The position numbers and the translations under genes are program-made. From the NCBI GenBank assembly GCA_051439505.1, contig JBFRWI010000195.1:1-40230 (forward strand): 40,230 nucleotides of DNA, given 5' to 3'. This document shows, piece after piece, positions 311 through 27,962 of this stretch; the first letter of the stretch is position 1; every line of letters starts with the position of its first letter. Below the pieces are notes generated by a model. That model searched no databases. It worked only from the letters and a program-made list of their open reading frames with translations, and was not told where the DNA came from. This DNA is from Hormoscilla sp. (GTDB lineage: Bacteria; Cyanobacteriota; Cyanobacteriia; Cyanobacteriales; Desertifilaceae).

Positions 311-850
311 ATGTTTTTTATCTTGTTGGCTTCTTTTTGGACTAACTTTCTCAAGGGACCAGCATCATCTGAGAAATCGAAAGGGAAATCTCTCTCGATT
401 AGTTGGGTGATTCCTGGTAAGCTAGCTGTCGGACCCTTGCCCCAACCGGGTGACTCGGCCCAACTGGCAGCAGCTGATATTCAGGTTGTACTCTCTCTAT
501 GTGCGGAAGCAGAAGGTGCCTTACCTGATGATGTCAGGGAAAATTTTCAGTGTTTGCACTGGTTTTTACCGGACAGTCATTACGATCTGGAACTCAATGT
601 TTCCGATCTGGTTTGGGCGGTGGAACTGGTCCATCAGACGATCTCTAACGAGTTGCCCATTTATGTCCATTGTTTGGCAGGGATGCAGCGATCGCCCACT
701 GTCTGTATCGCTTACCTGATGCGCTATCATAAACTGGAACTCTGGGAAGCTGTTAACTGGCTCAAGCAAGTACGCCCCGCTTCTTCCCCGACTGAATATC
801 AACTGCGGGTGGTGCGGGAATTTATTTCACAGGAGGCTGACTCACCATGA
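311..850 (+). CDS. dual-specificity protein phosphatase family protein
   Basis: HCLAGMQRS catalytic P-loop (HCxxGxxRS). ORF track starts at GTG 254; the in-frame ATG at 311 is preferred but the start is uncertain. Confidence 0.85.
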   Translation: MFFILLASFWTNFLKGPASSEKSKGKSLSISWVIPGKLAVGPLPQPGDSAQLAAADIQVVLSLCAEAEGALPDDVRENFQCLHWFLPDSHYDLELNVSDLVWAVELVHQTISNELPIYVHCLAGMQRSPTVCIAYLMRYHKLELWEAVNWLKQVRPASSPTEYQLRVVREFISQEADSP

Positions 851-1341
851 TACGCGATCGCATTATACCAGGTCCGGGTCAAGAATCTGTTTGGGATTAC
901 CCGCGCCCTCCCCGCCTGGAAGATTCTGACAAGCATATCCAAGTGATCTTCAATGGGGTGACTATTGCCGATACCCGCAAGGCTAAACGGGTATTGGAAA
1001 CTAGCCATCCTCCAACATACTACATTCCACCGGAAGATGTCAAGCTGGAGTATCTAACCTCGACGCCCAAGACATCATTTTGCGAGTGGAAAGGACGTGC
1101 CCGTTACTACACGATCGCTGTAGGGGAGAAACAGGCGGCCAATGGGGCCTGGGATTATCCTAACCCGACTCCCTCTTTTGAAGGAATCAAGGATTATTTG
1201 GCTTTTTACGCGCAAATGATGGACGCTTGCTATGTTGATGGGGAACTGGTGCAGGCCCAAGCTGGTGATTTCTACGGGGGTTGGCGCACTAGCGATATTG
1301 TCGGTCCCTTTAAGGGCGGTCCCGGCACTTGGGGATGGTAG
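847..1341 (+). CDS. DUF427 domain-containing protein
   Basis: ESVWDYPRPP, LETSHPPTYYIP, CEWKG and GDFYGGW motifs; ATGA overlap with the phosphatase gene. Confidence 0.9.
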   Translation: MIRDRIIPGPGQESVWDYPRPPRLEDSDKHIQVIFNGVTIADTRKAKRVLETSHPPTYYIPPEDVKLEYLTSTPKTSFCEWKGRARYYTIAVGEKQAANGAWDYPNPTPSFEGIKDYLAFYAQMMDACYVDGELVQAQAGDFYGGWRTSDIVGPFKGGPGTWGW

Positions 1342-1385: not shown

Positions 1386-1586
1386 ATGGTAAGTTCCATT
1401 CAAATTGACGAAAAACTACTCGAAGAAGCCCTGGCTTTGAGCAACCATTCAACAGTTAATCTATTAATAGAAGAGGCTTTGCGCGAATACATTCAACGTC
1501 GCAAACAACTGAAACTGTTGGACTTGTTTGGGACTATCGACTATGAAGAAGATTATGATTATAAGCAACAAAGACAAGTAAGATGA
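1386..1586 (+). CDS. VapB-family antitoxin
   Basis: IDEKLLEEAL...IEEALREYIQRRKQLKLLDLFGTIDYEEDYDYK pattern; ATG at 1386; stop overlaps the ATG of a toxin stub. Confidence 0.8.
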   Translation: MVSSIQIDEKLLEEALALSNHSTVNLLIEEALREYIQRRKQLKLLDLFGTIDYEEDYDYKQQRQVR

Positions 1587-1740
1587 AGGTCATTTTTGGG
1601 GTGCATCTCACTTGCGTAGGGGCGAAGCATTTGGATAGGAAATATGTCTATATATGACTTTAATTGTCGCCCAAATGCTTCGCCCCTACAGATACATCTG
1701 CAAATATGAGAGACAACCCTATTTTTGACCAGAATATTCT
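1583..1740 (+). pseudogene. vapC (PIN toxin) N-terminal stub, MITE-interrupted
   Basis: ATGA-coupled to vapB. Removing the MITE and one target duplication gives MKVIFDQNIL, matching the PIN start pattern MKhhhDTxh; the rest of the gene is absent. Confidence 0.6.
1599..1719. mobile_element. MITE with GGGTGCATCTCA-type terminal inverted repeats and an internal GTAG-type REP palindrome
   Basis: Ends GGGTGCATCTCA / TGAGAGACAACCC; flanks CATTTTTG / TATTTTTG (7 of 8 match, target duplication); internal GTAGGGGCGAAGCATTTG...CAAATGCTTCGCCCCTAC. Confidence 0.75.
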
Positions 1741-1743
1741 GAA

Positions 1744-1812
1744 TTATTTCAATTGGGCATCAATAATTTTAAGCAAATATTTTTCAAAGTTTTTTCTCAA
1801 GTCAAGGTTCAT
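1744..1812 (-). pseudogene. RelE/StbE-family toxin N-terminal stub
   Basis: ATG overlaps the antitoxin stop; MNLDLRKNFEKYLLKIIDAQLK* resembles RelE starts of the type MNVEFRKSFEKDLLKI. Confidence 0.65.
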
Positions 1813-2018
1813 GGTTGTCTATTAAGAATTTGGAAGATCTGATCGCGGCTGACGGTTTCGGTATTTTCACCTTCTGCGATCGCATTTTTCATCCCTATAT
1901 CTTCTAGGGTTTCTGCTAAAACTTCGGAAAACAGTTCTTTTTGTTCTTGCAGTAATTCAAGAATTGCCGTATTGAGCAATTCTTTGAGTTTGGTTTCATC
2001 TAGAGTAATTTCAGCCAT
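1809..2018 (-). CDS. putative antitoxin of a RelE-type TA pair
   Basis: Small acidic protein with LAETLEDIGMKNAIAEGENTETVSRDQIF tail, typical of cyanobacterial RelE partners; coupled to a RelE stub. Confidence 0.65.
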   Translation of the reverse strand: MAEITLDETKLKELLNTAILELLQEQKELFSEVLAETLEDIGMKNAIAEGENTETVSRDQIFQILNRQP

Positions 2019-2151
2019 CGCTTGTTTGCTTTAATTGATTACCTAAATTATAACGCCAACTGTGGATTTAGGGCAGTGGTGTTTTTTGACGAGTTGCCCA
2101 TAGATGCGGGTAGTAGGACGATTTGTCTCAAGAAAGCGGCCCTCGATGAGG

Positions 2152-2181
2152 TTGACGGTTGCAGCGAGAACGTGCCATAAT
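2152..2181 (+). promoter_or_regulatory. putative sigma70 promoter for the two downstream antitoxins
   Basis: TTGACG-18 nt-CATAAT with extended -10 TG. Confidence 0.4.
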
Positions 2182-2206
2182 TAGATAATTTAATTAACTA
2201 TTGACT

Positions 2207-2407
2207 ATGACAACTAATGTTGAACTTAATGAAGAATTGGTGCAAGAAGGATTGCGCTTAACCAAATTAAAGACAGAAAAAGAATTGATTGAATTTGCTT
2301 TGCAAGAACTGATACGCACCCGCAAAAAGCGGAATCTACTGGATTTAAGCGGACAAATTAAATTTGCCAGCAACTACGATTACAAATCTTTGCGGTATAA
2401 TCAATAG
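2207..2407 (+). CDS. VapB-family antitoxin (no toxin follows)
   Basis: TNVELNEELVQEGLRLT..KTEKELIEFALQELIR..KKRNLLDLSGQIKF..YDYK; ATG 2207 preferred over TTG 2201. Confidence 0.8.
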   Translation: MTTNVELNEELVQEGLRLTKLKTEKELIEFALQELIRTRKKRNLLDLSGQIKFASNYDYKSLRYNQ

Positions 2408-2418
2408 GAGGCTCGATC

Positions 2419-2646
2419 GTGCAACAGGTTGACATCACTGAGGCTCAAGTCCAAATTAGTCAGCTTCTTCAATTTGCTCTGAGGGGTGAGGAAATTATCA
2501 TCACCCGTGACAATCAACCGATCCTTAAACTGATTCAATTCGGGTCTCCTGCCAAACGGCGGCAACGAGGAAGTGCCAAAGGACAGATCCAGATGGCTCC
2601 CGACTTTGATGAGCCACTAGAATATTTTCGAGAATATATGGAATGA
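2419..2646 (+). CDS. Phd/YefM-like (DUF2281-type C-terminus) antitoxin
   Basis: ALRGEEIIITRDNQPILKL and RQRGSAKGQIQMAPDFDEPLE motifs; AGGAGG RBS. Confidence 0.8.
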   Translation: MQQVDITEAQVQISQLLQFALRGEEIIITRDNQPILKLIQFGSPAKRRQRGSAKGQIQMAPDFDEPLEYFREYME

Positions 2647-2709
2647 AAATACTCATCGATACCCATACTTTTCTATTACATTAGTGCAGATCGGAAATTT
2701 GATAGTTAG
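2643..2709 (+). pseudogene. vapC toxin with large internal deletion
   Basis: MKILIDTHTFL (PIN N-terminus, 2643-2675) joined out of frame to ISADRKFDS (PIN C-terminal motif, 2680-2706). Confidence 0.8.
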
Positions 2710-2711
2710 CA

Positions 2712-3132
2712 AAAGAAACCGGGTTTCTGAACACATCTTGAGGTTCTGATGCCAATTTTATTAGAGAAACCCGGTTTCTGGCCTTGGGGCGATCAGGCAG
2801 GTTGGGCGATCGGGCAGCTAAAGAAACCGGGTTTCTGCACAAATCTTGCGGTTCTGATGCCAATTTTATTAGAGAAACCCGGTTTCTGACCTTGGGGCGA
2901 GACCTTGGGGCGATCGGGCAGCTAAAGAAACCGGGTTTCTGCACAAATCTTTTGCTTGTGATGCCAAAGTTATTAGAGAAACCCGGTTTCTGACCTTGGG
3001 GCGATCGCGCAGGTGGGGCGAGACCTTGGGGCGATCGCGCATTGATAAAGAAACCGGGTTTCTGCACAAATCTTGCGGTTCTGATGCCAAAGTTATTAGA
3101 GAAACCCGGTTTCTGACCTTGGGGCGATCGCG
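2712..3132. repeat. four tandem 69-bp AGAAACCGGGTTTCT...AGAAACCCGGTTTCT units with HIP1-bearing linkers
   Basis: Units at 2712-2780, 2820-2888, 2924-2992 and 3047-3115; linkers built from CCTTGGGGCGATCG. A related short copy lies at ~30271-30316. Confidence 0.9.
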
Positions 3133-3140
3133 CGGGTGGA

Positions 3141-3221: not shown

Positions 3222-3276
3222 CATTGAAGTAGACTATGTCAGTCATCGAAACCCTAAACCGCAATATTGAACTTCG

Positions 3277-3350
3277 TCAATTAGTCTCCTGGCCAGCAGT
3301 GGGTTTTAACCCACTGCTAATAGCTAAAGTCGGTTTTAACCCACTGAAAA
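3277..3350 (-). repeat. double-hairpin REP-like element (GGGTTTTAACCC)
   Basis: Reverse-complement homolog of the units at 7561-7763. Confidence 0.8.
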
Positions 3351-3355
3351 TTGTA

Positions 3356-4690
3356 TTATTTAGCATCGCAATATTGCTTCTGTACGATGCTGTTAGGTTC
3401 AATACTATCTAGTAACCATTGATTTCGATTGCGATCTAAAATTATATTAAAGATTAAGCTTTCACAATTATTTAGACCATTTTTCATATAATACTTTAAC
3501 CAAACTTTAATCTTTGCTTTACTGCTATTCTGGGCAAAAGTTTGAAAAGCATATACTTCGACTTTTTTGACAGAATTCCACCAACTATCATTATAATTAA
3601 GTCTTTTGGCTTCTCGTGGTATCCAGTTATCACTGAGTAACTGGATGGCTGAGTTTCTATTCCTTGTTGCTAACTGATAATATCGAACAATGGTTTTTTT
3701 AGGAGCCGAGATTTGCGCGTTAGAATCAGATGCAAAATTAGCGTGCGATCCTGGTTGCGATCCTGCTAATATCCACCAAGATGCAAACCCTGCTAAAATT
3801 ATGCTAAATATAAACGTTAATGCTAGATTAAATTCACTACTATTGCTGTTATCAGTAATTCCATTGGTGTTTAATTGTCTTTTTGCTGAGGATGAAGTTA
3901 TGAACAAACCTATCCTAAAATATACAATACTTGCAAGTATGTTAATAGGGAAAGCCAAAATCCATTGCCAAATTCCAGAAAACCTAAAACCTAAAACAGA
4001 AGCTCTTAGCGAATAAAACCAGTAACTGAAAAAGTTATTAATTATAACTCGATCGTCTTTTATCCAATCTATAAAATCAGATACATAAGCTAGATTTTTA
4101 ATCTTTTTATGTGCTAGATCGGTAAAAATATCAAAATAAACATTGCTTGTCGCTCCTGATGTTATTATATTTAGAAAGTTATGATAATCTAAAATTGTGT
4201 TGAAAAAACATAAAAAAATCACAAATGGACATATCAAAATCAACAATGCTTGAGGACCTAATACATAAAGTAGTGGAGCAAAACTCCAGCCTAAACACGT
4301 AAAAGCCGCCAATAAAATACGCCAAACTCCTTGGTAAGGTAAATTAGATATATTAAATAAATTAGATATATCTATCCCTTGTTCTTCTTTGATAGCATCT
4401 TTGATAGCCTCTTTGATAGCAGTCCAGACAAACAAGAGAAATACGACAAAAACACCAATAATTACAACAAGTAATTTATCTAGCCATTCTGTGCCTGTGT
4501 TCTGGGTAATATTGATCAAAAAACTATTCAACAAATACTCCCTGAATTGATTAAACCATATCATTACAGGTCTAACAATAAAAATCAACAGAAAACGAGC
4601 GATTAATGTGATTAAAATAGAAAGCCCTAAGCCTAAAATCGGTAAAAAGAGATGGTATAACTCAAATTTAAAGCTTTTACTGCTTGTCAT
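3356..4690 (-). CDS. AT-rich multi-pass membrane protein with C-terminal extracytoplasmic domain
   Basis: Several hydrophobic segments. C-terminus (IVRYYQL...LLSDNW...WWNSVKKVEV...LKYYMKNG...QWLLD) resembles domains at the C-termini of cyanobacterial Ser/Thr kinases. AGGAGG precedes ATG 4690; the frame is open to 4735. Confidence 0.7.
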   Translation of the reverse strand: MTSSKSFKFELYHLFLPILGLGLSILITLIARFLLIFIVRPVMIWFNQFREYLLNSFLINITQNTGTEWLDKLLVVIIGVFVVFLLFVWTAIKEAIKDAIKEEQGIDISNLFNISNLPYQGVWRILLAAFTCLGWSFAPLLYVLGPQALLILICPFVIFLCFFNTILDYHNFLNIITSGATSNVYFDIFTDLAHKKIKNLAYVSDFIDWIKDDRVIINNFFSYWFYSLRASVLGFRFSGIWQWILAFPINILASIVYFRIGLFITSSSAKRQLNTNGITDNSNSSEFNLALTFIFSIILAGFASWWILAGSQPGSHANFASDSNAQISAPKKTIVRYYQLATRNRNSAIQLLSDNWIPREAKRLNYNDSWWNSVKKVEVYAFQTFAQNSSKAKIKVWLKYYMKNGLNNCESLIFNIILDRNRNQWLLDSIEPNSIVQKQYCDAK

Positions 4691-4736
4691 AAGACCTCCT
4701 GAGCGAGTTTCCGAAATCTCAACTTGTCTTAACATA

Positions 4737-6810: not shown

Positions 6811-7020
6811 TCATACGTTGTCATCATCAATTCCCTCCCACAGTCGGGCAACTGGAATTGTTTGACCGGTCATTGCTTCGTGCCATGCTTGCCGAAAATC
6901 CTCCAGAATTTGCCTTTTGGGTTCGTCATCATCGCCCTGGTTTGTATCTATTGACAAATGCTCATCTAACGCCAGTTTTCCCCGATCGTCAATCTTTTCC
7001 ATAACTTTGATAGCTTTCAT
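6811..7020 (-). CDS. putative antitoxin, possibly internally shortened
   Basis: MKAIKV...GKLALDE and ILEDFRQAWHEAMTGQTIPVARLWEGID, typical of cyanobacterial proteins upstream of RelE/HigB toxins; ATG at 7020. Confidence 0.6.
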   Translation of the reverse strand: MKAIKVMEKIDDRGKLALDEHLSIDTNQGDDDEPKRQILEDFRQAWHEAMTGQTIPVARLWEGIDDDNV

Positions 7021-7069
7021 AATATCTCCAATGGCCCCCACCTGCCCCCAAACTAGCCCTATATGCAGC

Positions 7070-7100
7070 GGTTGGGTTTCGTACCTCAACCCAACCTACG
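7070..7100 (-). repeat. GTAG-type REP hairpin
   Basis: Minus strand reads GTAGGTTGGGTTGAGGTACGAAACCCAAC. Confidence 0.6.
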
Positions 7101-24322: not shown

Positions 24323-25441
24323 TCATAAAAGAAAGGTGAGCAGAAACAGCACGCCAGCTAAAGCGAATAGTAGGCGCATCGCAGGGCGGATAGATTTCTG
24401 CTTGGAGAGGAAACCAATTGCTGATGGCACTACTAAGGCACCTCCAGTTCCGAAGAGCGACAGGAACCCGTAAACCCTGCTATAGTCCGATGGGGGAAAC
24501 TTGGCAAAAGTCAGTGCCACAGTGGTAGGGAGAATCGGGCCCAAAGACAAACCCATTCCCACAACAGCGATCGCACTGACATAGCGTTTACTTTTCAAGA
24601 TCATTAGTCCGACGATGACCGTGGCCAATAGAGCCATTACTTGGATAGCCAGCCGGGTGTTGTCGGGAGTAATAAAGCGGGCAGCCACGAATCTTCCTAC
24701 CATCAAAGCCAACCAAAATAATGAAAGCAGTATCTCGGCCAGCTTCTCATTCCAGCCGACATCCTGCAAATAAGTCGTTGTCCAATTTGCGAGGGAATGC
24801 TCCAGCCCCAGAGCGCAGAACAAAACGAAAGCAGCGATCCAGATTACCCCGTTCTTTTTCAGTTCCCAAACCGTGGATGGATCTACATCACTCTGGATCT
24901 GAGGGTAGGAAGAGAGCAGAACTGGAACGAGAAAGACCGCCATAGCCATAGCCAATAGCTTCAAAGCGCCTCGGAAGCTGAGCAATTCAAACAGGTAGGC
25001 GAGCCCGAAAGGCAAAAGAAAAGCGCCTATTCCAAAAAAGGCTCCGCCCAGATTGCCTGCGGATGCTAGGTTATCAGGATTGACTGCTGCTAATAGGGTA
25101 TAGCCGCCGATATTGAGGCAACAACCGCTCAGACCTAGCCCGCAAGATGCTATCTTTGCGGTGAAGAAATTATGCGCCCGAGCAAACAGCCATATAGCAG
25201 CAAGCAAAATCAAAAACCCCGCAGTCAGCACCAGTTGGTAACCGAAACGATCTTGAAGGTAGTATCCTACCAAGATTGTTCCCAGTATTCTGCTAGCTTG
25301 CAATAGAGCGATTAGCTGACCGATGCGGGCGTCATCCAGCATCATTTTTTGTGCCAGACGCAGCTTGAACGTACCCATAAACGCCGAGATAATGCCAAAG
25401 GTAAATAATGCCAATAAGGCGACTATTGATACTGGATTCAA
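24323..25441 (-). CDS. MFS transporter (copy A)
   Basis: 372 aa, highly hydrophobic, DRFG motif-A variant; TTG start after AGGAG. Confidence 0.9.
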   Translation of the reverse strand: MNPVSIVALLALFTFGIISAFMGTFKLRLAQKMMLDDARIGQLIALLQASRILGTILVGYYLQDRFGYQLVLTAGFLILLAAIWLFARAHNFFTAKIASCGLGLSGCCLNIGGYTLLAAVNPDNLASAGNLGGAFFGIGAFLLPFGLAYLFELLSFRGALKLLAMAMAVFLVPVLLSSYPQIQSDVDPSTVWELKKNGVIWIAAFVLFCALGLEHSLANWTTTYLQDVGWNEKLAEILLSLFWLALMVGRFVAARFITPDNTRLAIQVMALLATVIVGLMILKSKRYVSAIAVVGMGLSLGPILPTTVALTFAKFPPSDYSRVYGFLSLFGTGGALVVPSAIGFLSKQKSIRPAMRLLFALAGVLFLLTFLL

Positions 25442-25493
25442 GATTTGATTTCTCCTGATTTATTTGGGATATTTTTTGACTGATGCCTATTAT

Positions 25494-25521
25494 ATGGTAA
25501 CAGATATCGGGAGCATGTCAA
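25494..25521 (-). promoter_or_regulatory. putative promoter of MFS copy A (duplicated at 26732-26759 for copy B)
   Basis: TTGACA-16 nt-TACCAT with extended -10 TG; identical in both intergenic regions. Confidence 0.5.
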
Positions 25522-25558
25522 GATGGCATTCCCAGGCGGGAGTCTCTTGAGGATCTCT

Positions 25559-26677
25559 TCATAAAAGAAAGGTGAGCATAAATAGGACCAAGGCTAAAGC
25601 GAATAGCAGGCCCATCGCAGGGCGGATAGATTTCTGCTTGGAGAGGAAACCAATTGCTGATGGCACTACTAAGGCACCGAGAGTTCCGAAGAGCGCCAGG
25701 AACCCGTAAACGCTGCTATAGTCTGATGGGGGGAACTTGGCAAAAGTCAGTCCTACAGTGGTAGGGGAGATGGGCGCCAAGGACAAACCTATTCCCACAA
25801 CAGCGATCGCACCGAGAAGGCGTTTGCTGTTGAGGATCATTAGTCCGACGATCGCCGCCGTCACTAGAACCATTGCTTGCATAGCGATCCGGGTGTTTTC
25901 GGGAGTAATAAAGCGGGCAGCCACTAACCTTCCTACCATAAATGCTAACCAAAACAATGAAAACAGAATAGAAGCCCGTTTCTCATTCCAGCCGACATCC
26001 TGTAAATAAGTCGTTGTCCAATTTGCCATGGAAAACTCCAGCGCCACAGCACAGAAAAAGACCAAAGCAGCGATCCAGATTGCCCCGTTCTTTATCAGTT
26101 CCAAAACCTTGGATGGATCTACATCACTCTGGATCTGAGGGTAGGAAGAGAGCAGGACTGGAACGAGAAAGACCGCCATAGGTATAGCCAATAGCTTCAA
26201 AGCACGCCGGAAGCTGAGCAATTCAAACAGGTAGGCGAGCCCGAAAGGCAAAAGTAAAGCGCCTATGCCATAAATAGCACCGCCTAGATTGATAACGGAA
26301 GTTTGGTTGTCAGGATTGACTGCTGCTAACAGGGTATTGCCGCTGATATTGAGGCAACAACCGCTTAGACCTAGGCCACAAGATGCTATCTTTGCGGTGA
26401 ATAAATTCTGCGCCCGAGCAAACAGCCATATAGCAGCAAGCAAAATAAAAAACCCCGCAGTCAGCACGAGTTTGTAACCGAAACGATCTTGAACGTAGTA
26501 TCCCACAAAGATAGTTCCCAGTACGTTACCAGCTTGCAGTATAGCGATTAGCTGACCGATGCGGGCGTCATCGAGCATCAGTTTTTGCGCCAGACGCAGC
26601 TTGATCGTACCCATAAACGCCGATATGATGCCAAAGGTAAATACTGCCAATAAGGCGACTAATGATGCTCGATTCAA
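25559..26677 (-). CDS. MFS transporter (copy B)
   Basis: 372-aa paralog, colinear with copies A and C. Confidence 0.9.
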   Translation of the reverse strand: MNRASLVALLAVFTFGIISAFMGTIKLRLAQKLMLDDARIGQLIAILQAGNVLGTIFVGYYVQDRFGYKLVLTAGFFILLAAIWLFARAQNLFTAKIASCGLGLSGCCLNISGNTLLAAVNPDNQTSVINLGGAIYGIGALLLPFGLAYLFELLSFRRALKLLAIPMAVFLVPVLLSSYPQIQSDVDPSKVLELIKNGAIWIAALVFFCAVALEFSMANWTTTYLQDVGWNEKRASILFSLFWLAFMVGRLVAARFITPENTRIAMQAMVLVTAAIVGLMILNSKRLLGAIAVVGIGLSLAPISPTTVGLTFAKFPPSDYSSVYGFLALFGTLGALVVPSAIGFLSKQKSIRPAMGLLFALALVLFMLTFLL

Positions 26678-26843
26678 GATTTTATTTCTCCTGATTTCTT
26701 TGGGATATTTTTTTTTACTGATGCCTGTTATATGGTAACAGATATCGGGAGCATGTCAAGATGGCATTCCCGGGAGCCTCTTAAGGAGAAGAATGTCTTC
26801 TGAATTTTTAAATTACAGGCGGGACAGACTAGGTAGGATCTCT

Positions 26844-27962
26844 TCATAAAAGAAAGGTGAGCAGAAACAGCACGCCAGCTAAAGCGAATAGCAGGCCCAT
26901 CGCGGGGCGGATAGATTTATGCTTGGAGAGGATACCAATTGCTGATGGCACTACTAAGGCACCGAGAGTTCCGAAGATCCCCAGGAATCCGTAAACGCGG
27001 CTATATTCCGATGGGGGAAACTTGGCAAAAGTTATTCCTATAGTGGTAGGGGCGATCGGGCCCAAGGACAAACCCATTCCCAGAACAGCGATCGCACCGA
27101 CAGCGCGTTTGCTGTTGAGGATCATTAGTCCGACGATCGCCGCCACCACTAGAACCATTGCTTGCATAGCGATCCGGGTGTTTTCGGGAGTAATAAAGCG
27201 GGCAGCCACCAAGCTTCCTACCATAAAAGCCAACCAAAATAATGAAAACAGAATAGAAGCTCGTTTCTCATTCCAACCGACATCCTGCAAATATGTAGTT
27301 GTCCAATTTGCCATAGACAACTCCAGCGCCACAGCACAGAAGAAGACCAAAGCAGAGATCCAGATTTCCCCGTTCTTTATCAGTTCCAAAACAGTGGATG
27401 GATCTACATTACTCTGGATCTGAGGGTAGGAAGAGAGTAGAACTGGAACGACAAAGACCGCCATAACCATAGCCAATAGCTTCAAAGCGCCCCGGAAGCT
27501 GAGCAATTCAAACAGGTAGGCGAGTAGAAAAGGCAAAAGAAAAGCGCCTATACCAAAAAAGGCTCCGCCCAGATTGCTTGCGGATGCTGGGTTGTCAGGA
27601 TTGACTGCTGCTAATAGGGTATGGCCGCCGATATTGAGGCAACTACCGCTCAGACCTAGCCAACAAGATGCTATCTTTGCGGTGGAAAAATGCTTTGCCT
27701 GAGCAAACAGCCAGATAGCAGCAAGCAAAATCAAAAATCCCGCAGTCAGCACCAGTTGGTAACCGAAACGATCTTGAACGTAGTATCCGACCAAGATTGT
27801 CGAGAGTACCTTACTAGCTTGCAGTATAGCGATTAGCTGACCGATGTGGGCATCATCCAGCATCAGTTTTTGCGCCAGACGCAGCTTGATCGTACCCATA
27901 AACGCCGAGATGATGCCAAAGGTAAATATTGCCAATAAGGCGACATTAGATGCTGGATTCAA
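26844..27962 (-). CDS. MFS transporter (copy C)
   Basis: 372-aa paralog; TTG start after GGAGG. Confidence 0.9.
   Translation of the reverse strand: MNPASNVALLAIFTFGIISAFMGTIKLRLAQKLMLDDAHIGQLIAILQASKVLSTILVGYYVQDRFGYQLVLTAGFLILLAAIWLFAQAKHFSTAKIASCWLGLSGSCLNIGGHTLLAAVNPDNPASASNLGGAFFGIGAFLLPFLLAYLFELLSFRGALKLLAMVMAVFVVPVLLSSYPQIQSNVDPSTVLELIKNGEIWISALVFFCAVALELSMANWTTTYLQDVGWNEKRASILFSLFWLAFMVGSLVAARFITPENTRIAMQAMVLVVAAIVGLMILNSKRAVGAIAVLGMGLSLGPIAPTTIGITFAKFPPSEYSRVYGFLGIFGTLGALVVPSAIGILSKHKSIRPAMGLLFALAGVLFLLTFLL

What the first reader, a model, noticed from the sequence alone, without database searches (positions are those of the whole stretch)
1386..2709. Array of four intact antitoxins from different families with every toxin ablated
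Seen: four antitoxin-like ORFs in 1.3 kb (two VapB, one RelE partner, one Phd/DUF2281), all with open frames. Three are ATGA-coupled to toxin stubs (MKVIFD, MNLDLRKNFEK..., MKILIDTHTFL). The fourth runs straight into the next antitoxin's RBS, making an antitoxin-antitoxin operon behind a plausible promoter. Established: toxins must be lost before antitoxins, and orphan chromosomal antitoxins can act as anti-addiction modules. Inference: this is either a maintained antitoxin library that protects against incoming or trans-encoded toxins, or a TA graveyard caught mid-decay. This is the best candidate for an undescribed system in the window.
Basis: partly seen in the sequence, partly recalled or inferred. 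Interest (0 to 1): 0.75.

Follow-up and report, generated by a model that had tools for sequence, protein, structure and literature searches.

The report
Decaying toxin-antitoxin cluster, toxins lost first
Four antidote (antitoxin) genes in a cyanobacterium sit beside scraps of their deleted poison (toxin) genes; relatives carry the same cluster at every stage from complete to fully broken, so this is most likely ordinary toxin-first decay, not a purpose-kept antidote library.

Summary
In detail: four open antitoxin frames (VapB x2, RelB-like, Phd/DUF2281), three coupled to toxin stubs. The library reading is weak. All 4 congeneric genomes carry this cluster at the same site. Of 31 module copies in the five genomes, 8 are complete pairs, 15 lack only the toxin, 8 have both broken, and none keeps a toxin alone. 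The losses are not four separate targeted events: one tail-to-tail deletion took two toxins, and a third loss is older, shared with 3 of 4 congeners. A fifth antitoxin (MNT, 3236) is itself a stub. Orphans are this genome's norm (12 of 20 other loci). A related strain sharing the two-toxin deletion has a stop codon in the first antitoxin. Against pure decay: changes private to this genome look purified (7 synonymous, 6 nonsynonymous; p about 0.01), and orphan relatives of one antitoxin show no relaxation; both tests are confounded by timing. This matches published stepwise erosion of toxin-antitoxin clusters (PMC13617665). No earlier scan note described it.

The parts
847..1341 (+). DUF427 gene, left anchor of the cluster in all five genomes of the genus
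   Evidence: PF04248; synteny
1386..1586 (+). A1: VapB antitoxin, open frame, 66 aa
   Evidence: PF09957 44.9 bits; precedes a 132-aa PIN toxin in G003 and G004
1583..1598 (+). T1 stub: first five codons of a VapC/PIN toxin, ATGA-coupled to A1
   Evidence: matches the start of the intact toxin in G004
1599..1720 (.). 122-bp MITE-like repeat with inverted ends and a 7-bp ATTTTTG duplication; inserted after the toxins were deleted
   Evidence: 65 blastn hits in the genome, 12 near full length, several with 6-7-bp flanking duplications; empty site in run X4
1733..1812 (-). T2 remnant: about the first 28 codons of a RelE/ParE toxin, with a 4-nt deletion that gives a stop after 22 residues; joined tail-to-tail to the T1 stub
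   Evidence: 80-nt alignment to the intact 88-aa toxin of G004; that toxin is PF05016
1809..2018 (-). A2: RelB-like antitoxin, open frame, 69 aa
   Evidence: PF25734 60.2 bits; paired with an intact toxin in G001, G003, G004
2152..2181 (+). sigma-70-like site ahead of A3 (function not shown)
   Evidence: 10 of 12 consensus match, count not above shuffles; kept in G001 and G002
2207..2407 (+). A3: second VapB antitoxin, 66 aa; its toxin and last few codons were removed by an older deletion that joined it to A4
   Evidence: PF09957 51.6 bits; paired relatives are 70 aa and precede a 134-aa PIN toxin; same junction in G001, G002, G004
2419..2646 (+). A4: Phd/DUF2281 antitoxin, open frame, 75 aa
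   Evidence: PF10047 over cut-off, PF02604 under cut-off; paired with an intact 127-aa PIN toxin in G001
2643..2706 (+). T4 remnant: VapC codons 1-10 joined to about codons 111-120; about 300 bp missing inside, second deletion at the 3' end
   Evidence: alignment to G001 toxin; same internal deletion in run X9
2707..3133 (.). block of short dispersed repeats
   Evidence: about 20-65 blastn hits per position in the genome
3236..3277 (+). MNT antitoxin stub (14 codons); its HepT toxin is absent
   Evidence: full MNT-HepT pair at this position in G004

Best explanation
This stretch is what remains of a type II toxin-antitoxin cluster shared across the genus, in which the toxin genes are deleted and the antitoxins likely persist mainly because the toxin has to be lost first. 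Shown: the same site in four congeners holds up to eight modules in mixed states. Shown: in this lineage one tail-to-tail deletion removed the two convergent toxins T1 and T2, with a small repeat landing in the scar afterwards. Shown: an older deletion removed T3 and joined A3 to the A4 operon, internal deletions removed T4, and the MNT-HepT module is already lost on both sides. Inferred from established TA biology: losing an antitoxin while its toxin is active kills the cell, so decay passes through antitoxin-only states. Inferred: with no toxin left the four antitoxins are under weak or no selection and will follow.
For: 31 module copies in five genomes: 8 complete, 15 antitoxin-only, 8 both broken, 0 toxin-only (tallied by me). 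Independent toxin lesions in T4: deletion (G000), insertion (G002), nonsense (G004). The same antitoxins are broken elsewhere: A3 at this position has 4 stops in G002 and a frameshift in G004; A2 is truncated in G002; the second A1 copy is broken in G001, G003 and G004. Run X19 shares the T1/T2 join and has a stop at A1 codon 26, with pN/pS 1.10 against 0.26 for DUF427 (Fisher p 0.08). Genome background: 12 of 20 other antitoxin loci are orphans, 5 paired, 3 both broken. Family background: 27 of 57 A3 relatives outside the genus lack an intact toxin. No near-cognate toxin in trans. The same pattern is published for Photorhabdus: clustering, with toxin-only 185, both 186, antitoxin-only 8 pseudogenised (PMC13617665).
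Against: Changes private to G000 in the four antitoxins: 7 synonymous, 6 nonsynonymous, ratio 0.23, binomial p about 0.01 against neutral; A3+A4 alone 3 and 0. For A1, A2 and A4 this may date from before toxin loss, but A3 has long lacked its toxin. Orphan A3 relatives have pN/pS 0.14-0.19 against 0.15 for paired ones. In five species sharing one toxin frameshift, the antitoxin stays conserved (78 synonymous, 20 nonsynonymous, summed by hand over 10 non-independent pairs) while the broken toxin drifts more (78, 61). Listed contigs of X4, X9 and X19 show no frame-breaking gap that I could place inside the antitoxins, though tables were cut. Stubs are short (about 18 of 399, 84 of 267, 30 of 384 nt), as if deletions stop near the antitoxin. 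G002 also has stops in DUF427 and another neighbour, so its broken antitoxins may reflect genome-wide decay or sequence error.
Confidence: 0.75

Rival explanations
1. Decayed cluster in which some antitoxins (A3, A4, perhaps A2) are still kept by selection, individually, as anti-addiction shields against returning copies of the modules or as DNA-binding regulators.
For: Private-change ratio 0.23, p about 0.01. A4 is identical in protein between G000 and G002, which lost T4 separately. No relaxation in orphan A3 relatives. Intact cognate toxins circulate in congeners; relatives occur on cyanobacterial plasmids (T1 76%, T3 63%, T4 52% identity).
Against: The pairwise test cannot date toxin loss: even the frameshifted toxin shows an excess of synonymous change. 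The search favours intact antitoxins. A1 has a stop in a strain with the same deletion. A3 at this position is broken in 2 of 4 genomes that have it. Only 3 plasmid records of 72,556 match T1 and 1 matches T2, at 41%.
Confidence: 0.19
2. A maintained, purpose-built antitoxin library: a multi-family array assembled and kept as one defence unit against incoming or trans-encoded toxins.
For: Four open frames from three families in 1.3 kb. The A3-A4 junction is shared by 4 of 5 genomes. The toxin-less A1/A2 join occurs in three other related strains from three studies.
Against: The content differs in each congener. A fifth antitoxin is a stub. The four lie in three transcription directions. No trans target in the genome. 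The A3-A4 junction pattern matched 0 stretches in the JGI metagenome collection.
Confidence: 0.05
3. Assembly artefact: toxins dropped at repeats during assembly.
For: Two stubs lie next to multi-copy repeats.
Against: Contigs of X1, X2 and X3 bridge the junctions; X4, X9 and X19 (other studies) show the same T1/T2 join without the repeat, and X9 the same T4 deletion.
Confidence: 0.01

Closest known systems
Clustered, eroding chromosomal type II TA systems of Photorhabdus (Belot et al. 2026, PMC13617665; abstract, two Results sections and first part of Discussion read)
   Same: TA modules clustered in a small interval between conserved genes; patchy among congeners; toxin-only and both-broken copies common and toxin-alone copies rare; two-step decay.
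   Different: Here a cyanobacterium; in this genome every toxin of the cluster is gone; one deletion removed two convergent toxins; small repeats rather than transposase genes mark the scars; nothing tested at the bench.
Orphan antitoxins of Klebsiella pneumoniae (PMC7192599; passages read)
   Same: Orphans are abundant (2,253 occurrences, median nine per strain); proposed to be degrading pairs, regulators or anti-addiction modules.
   Different: That survey counts dispersed orphans; here four are adjacent and each can be traced to a full pair at the same site in relatives.
Anti-addiction modules, e.g. chromosomal CcdA of Erwinia chrysanthemi neutralising F-plasmid CcdB (as summarised in review PMC7354431; passages read)
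   Same: Chromosomal antitoxin with related toxins on plasmids (closest 76%, T1 relative on a Nostoc plasmid).
   Different: Cross-neutralisation, expression and retention are not shown here; the review itself says this use of orphans remains to be demonstrated as common.
VapBC (PF09957 or Phd/DUF2281 + PIN), RelB-like + RelE/ParE (PF25734 + PF05016) and MNT-HepT modules
   Same: Antitoxin families, gene order and ATGA coupling; intact partners in congeners carry the expected toxin domains.
   Different: No toxin is encoded here, so none of these is a complete module in this genome.

Membership tests
Type II antitoxin families (VapB, RelB-like, Phd/DUF2281) | Profile score over the curated cut-off | tested here: met
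   A1 and A3 PF09957, A2 PF25734, A4 PF10047; A4's PF02604 is under cut-off; no NCBIfam model over cut-off
Type II antitoxin families (VapB, RelB-like, Phd/DUF2281) | Orthologues lie directly upstream of a full-length toxin | tested here: met
Type II antitoxin families (VapB, RelB-like, Phd/DUF2281) | Binds and neutralises the toxin | not testable with these tools
   needs co-expression; no complex prediction was run
Complete type II TA module | Intact toxin gene beside the antitoxin | tested here: not met
   0 of 4
Eroding chromosomal TA cluster (PMC13617665) | Modules clustered in a small interval between conserved genes, varying among congeners | tested here: met
   4 of 4 congeners; 4 to 8 modules each
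Eroding chromosomal TA cluster (PMC13617665) | Toxin lost before antitoxin; antitoxins later lost too | tested here: met
   8 complete, 15 antitoxin-only, 8 both broken, 0 toxin-only of 31
Eroding chromosomal TA cluster (PMC13617665) | Relaxed selection on the leftover antitoxins | tested here: inconclusive
   A1 neutral with a stop in X19; G000-private changes and A3 family look purified
Anti-addiction module | Chromosomal antitoxin | tested here: met
   the contig carries photosystem I core genes (ORFs, names recalled)
Anti-addiction module | Near-cognate toxin on mobile elements or in trans | tested here: inconclusive
   none in the genome; plasmids best 76, 41, 63, 52% for T1-T4; phages not searched
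Anti-addiction module | Expressed | tested here: inconclusive
   only RNA-library contigs of related strains cover part of the locus, which cannot show transcription
Anti-addiction module | Cross-neutralises the incoming toxin | not testable with these tools
   bench test

The most novel reading that the evidence does not exclude
After the cluster lost its toxins, this lineage kept several antitoxins under selection as a multi-family shield against re-invasion by the same modules, which still circulate intact in congeners: a graveyard recycled into immunity. More broadly, orphan VapB genes of the A3 family stay functional across filamentous cyanobacteria.
Probability: 0.15. Interest if true: 0.55.

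Novelty: new member of a known kind. Interest (0 to 1): 0.2.

Why it matters
As an eroding TA cluster it is a clear cyanobacterial example of a published process and changes little. Its value is practical: intact cognate toxins for three of the four orphans exist at the same site in congeners, and for the fourth in other cyanobacteria. That makes this a ready test set for an open question, whether orphan antitoxins still protect or are just waiting to decay.

Tried and rejected
Toxin in trans: tblastn of congener toxins against the genome gave no hit for T1 or T3, 31% for T2, and 52% for T4 with its own antitoxin; the genome is 93% complete, so absence is not proven. Repeat-caused deletion of T1/T2: rejected, because the empty site in X4 already lacks both toxins. 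Hidden toxin on the other strand or in spacers: six-frame reading and Pfam of both longer stubs and the 2051-2185 frame gave nothing. More strains from JGI metagenomes: 0 matches to the A3-A4 junction pattern and 1 distant A2 locus. Expression: X19 and X20 are RNA-library contigs of other strains (about 2-11% divergent over the longer pieces); they cannot show transcription. Branch-by-branch selection on a tree of A3 relatives could not be computed, so only pairwise counts exist and timing stays open; one search dropped duplicate pairs and 3, 6 and 1 pairs over 25 differences. Census rows dropped: 3 of 23 other loci (C160:62185, C50, C193; probably not antitoxins), and 8 of 65 rows (5 same genus, 3 loci from another call). 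That census covers only Phd, DUF2281 and B-type antitoxins. Literature: two full-text searches for orphan or solitary antitoxin arrays and one for truncated toxins in cyanobacterial clusters listed no title or abstract describing a maintained chromosomal orphan array; listings only, and subscription journals are largely missing. A genus genomics paper had no passage on pseudogenes or TA systems (PMC6520454, word search). Earlier scan notes: none relevant. Supplements of PMC13617665 were not read.

Full report
Observation. The window is contig C195 of a 6.47-Mb, 93% complete genome. The closest named records are Hormoscilla, a cyanobacterial genus. Four open frames lie at 1386-1586(+), 1809-2018(-), 2207-2407(+) and 2419-2646(+). 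Pfam calls them VapB (A1, A3), RelB-like (A2) and DUF2281 with a sub-threshold Phd match (A4); no NCBIfam model passes its cut-off. A1, A2 and A4 overlap short stubs by ATGA, and A3's stop runs into the AGGAGG before A4. Contigs of three runs from one study reproduce the junctions with 0-1 differences.

The locus in relatives. All 4 congeners hold the cluster behind the same DUF427 gene; in G001 it is split across two contigs. Mapping the modules gives up to eight: A1-T1 (PIN), a first A3 copy with its PIN stub, an unnamed gene B with a PIN toxin (B has no Pfam match and is called an antitoxin by position), a second A1 copy, A2-T2 (RelE/ParE), the A3 copy before A4, A4-T4 (PIN), and MNT-HepT. 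I tallied 31 copies over five genomes: 8 with both frames open, 15 with only the antitoxin open, 8 with both broken, 0 with only the toxin. One of the 8 open toxins (T1 of G003) has Tyr in place of the first PIN Asp and may be inactive (role of that Asp recalled). T4 was lost three different ways: deletion in G000, insertion in G002, nonsense in G004.

How the window's state arose. T1 and T2 faced each other. The window keeps about 18 nt of T1 and 80 nt of T2, the latter with a 4-nt deletion; relative to G004 about 1.57 kb is missing. Runs X4, X9 and X19, from three other studies, show this same join without the 122-bp repeat. The repeat has inverted ends, a 7-bp duplication and 65 hits in the genome, so it landed in an existing scar. 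The A3-A4 join is older: G001, G002 and G004 share it, and paired A3 relatives are four residues longer and precede a 134-aa PIN toxin. T4 lost about 300 bp internally, as in X9, and then its 3' end. So 'every toxin ablated' comes down to three events, and the 'antitoxin-antitoxin operon' is a deletion product. The MNT antitoxin 600 bp further on is a 14-codon stub and its toxin is gone.

Is four in a row unusual? Among 20 other Phd, DUF2281 or B-type antitoxin loci in this genome, 12 have an open antitoxin with a broken or missing toxin, 5 are pairs and 3 are broken on both sides (3 doubtful rows dropped; two toxin calls rest on sequence resemblance without a Pfam match). Two other loci put antitoxin-type families side by side (C47: DUF2281-like then UPF0175; C100: DUF2283 then Phd). 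Outside the genus, 27 of 57 A3 relatives have an open antitoxin without an intact toxin, 25 are pairs, 2 near-intact, and 3 have a broken or partly matched antitoxin; several counted as open have altered ends. At such rates, three loss events in one cluster need no special cause (inference).

Selection, for and against. For decay: A3 at this position has four stops in G002 and a frameshift in G004, A2 is cut in G002, and the second A1 copy is dead in three genomes. In X19, which shares the T1/T2 join, A1 codons 1-47 differ by 13.5 nonsynonymous and 3.5 synonymous changes including a stop at codon 26 (pN/pS 1.10), against 0.26 for DUF427 (Fisher p 0.08; the source table was cut at 40 rows, so A2-A4 were not seen). 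Against: changes private to G000 are 7 synonymous and 6 nonsynonymous (ratio 0.23, p about 0.01), and orphan A3 relatives show pN/pS 0.14-0.19 against 0.15 for paired ones. Five species sharing one toxin frameshift keep a conserved antitoxin (78 to 20) while the toxin drifts more (78 to 61; intact toxins 76 to 32), summed by hand over non-independent pairs. That the dead toxin still shows a synonymous excess means pairwise counts mostly record time before the loss, or recombination. The question is open for A2-A4.

Targets. The genome has no match to T1 or T3, a 31% match to T2 and a 52% match to T4 that has its own antitoxin; A1, A3 and A2 are the only members of their Pfam families found in it. 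On plasmids the closest relatives are 76% (T1, Nostoc), 63% (T3), 52% (T4) and 41% (T2) identical. Intact cognates do exist in congeners, so a shield role is possible. Expression could not be tested.

Comparison with what is known. PMC13617665 (abstract, Results sections on clustering and on pseudogenisation, first part of the Discussion) reports TA clustering in small intervals and two-step decay in Photorhabdus, with 185 toxin-only, 186 double and 8 antitoxin-only pseudogenised copies. PMC7192599 (passages) finds orphans abundant in Klebsiella. PMC7354431 (passages) describes anti-addiction and says it is not yet shown to be a common use of orphans. The locus works like the first and meets its structural features; the anti-addiction features are untested or inconclusive.

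Verdict. Real, ordinary in kind: an eroding TA cluster in which this genome happens to have lost every toxin (0.75). Residual selection on some antitoxins 0.19; a purpose-built library 0.05; artefact 0.01. Interest 0.2.

Noticed in passing
L059, L065, L073, L077, L079 (toxin nt 252): Five Microcoleus/Tychonema-type species share the same +1 frameshift in the PIN toxin after an A3-family antitoxin, while the antitoxin stays conserved. A better test case for orphan retention than the window.
   Followed up: partly
G000 C47 (L121) and C100 (L115): Two more places with antitoxin-type families side by side and no toxin found: DUF2281-like then UPF0175; DUF2283 then Phd then an unnamed 79-aa ORF.
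   Followed up: partly
window 1599-1720; L027 after the second A1 copy; run X8 at window 2676: The same repeat family turns up at toxin scars in three strains; whether it targets such sites or just survives there is unknown.
   Followed up: partly
window 2396-2401: A perfect TATAAT begins exactly where A3 homology ends, just ahead of A4's ribosome-binding site; possibly A4's original -10 box (not flagged).
   Followed up: no
P0005: An A2 variant from another assembly ends in the last residues of the T2 stub, which suggests a further deletion eating into A2.
   Followed up: no
L027 (G003) T1: Open PIN toxin frame with Tyr at the first conserved Asp position.
   Followed up: no
window 3356-4735(-): 459-aa ORF, hydrophobic by eye, without a Pfam match and with no tblastn hit in the five congener stretches searched (output partly cut); sits where G004 has the MNT-HepT pair.
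   Followed up: no
window 6811-7089(-): A further RelN-family antitoxin over its NCBIfam cut-off; partner not checked.
   Followed up: no
window 24323-27962(-): Three tandem, closely similar 372-aa transporter-like ORFs.
   Followed up: no
window 2707-3133 and about 3275-3350: Two further dispersed repeat families, with up to about 65 and about 240 blastn hits in the genome.
   Followed up: no
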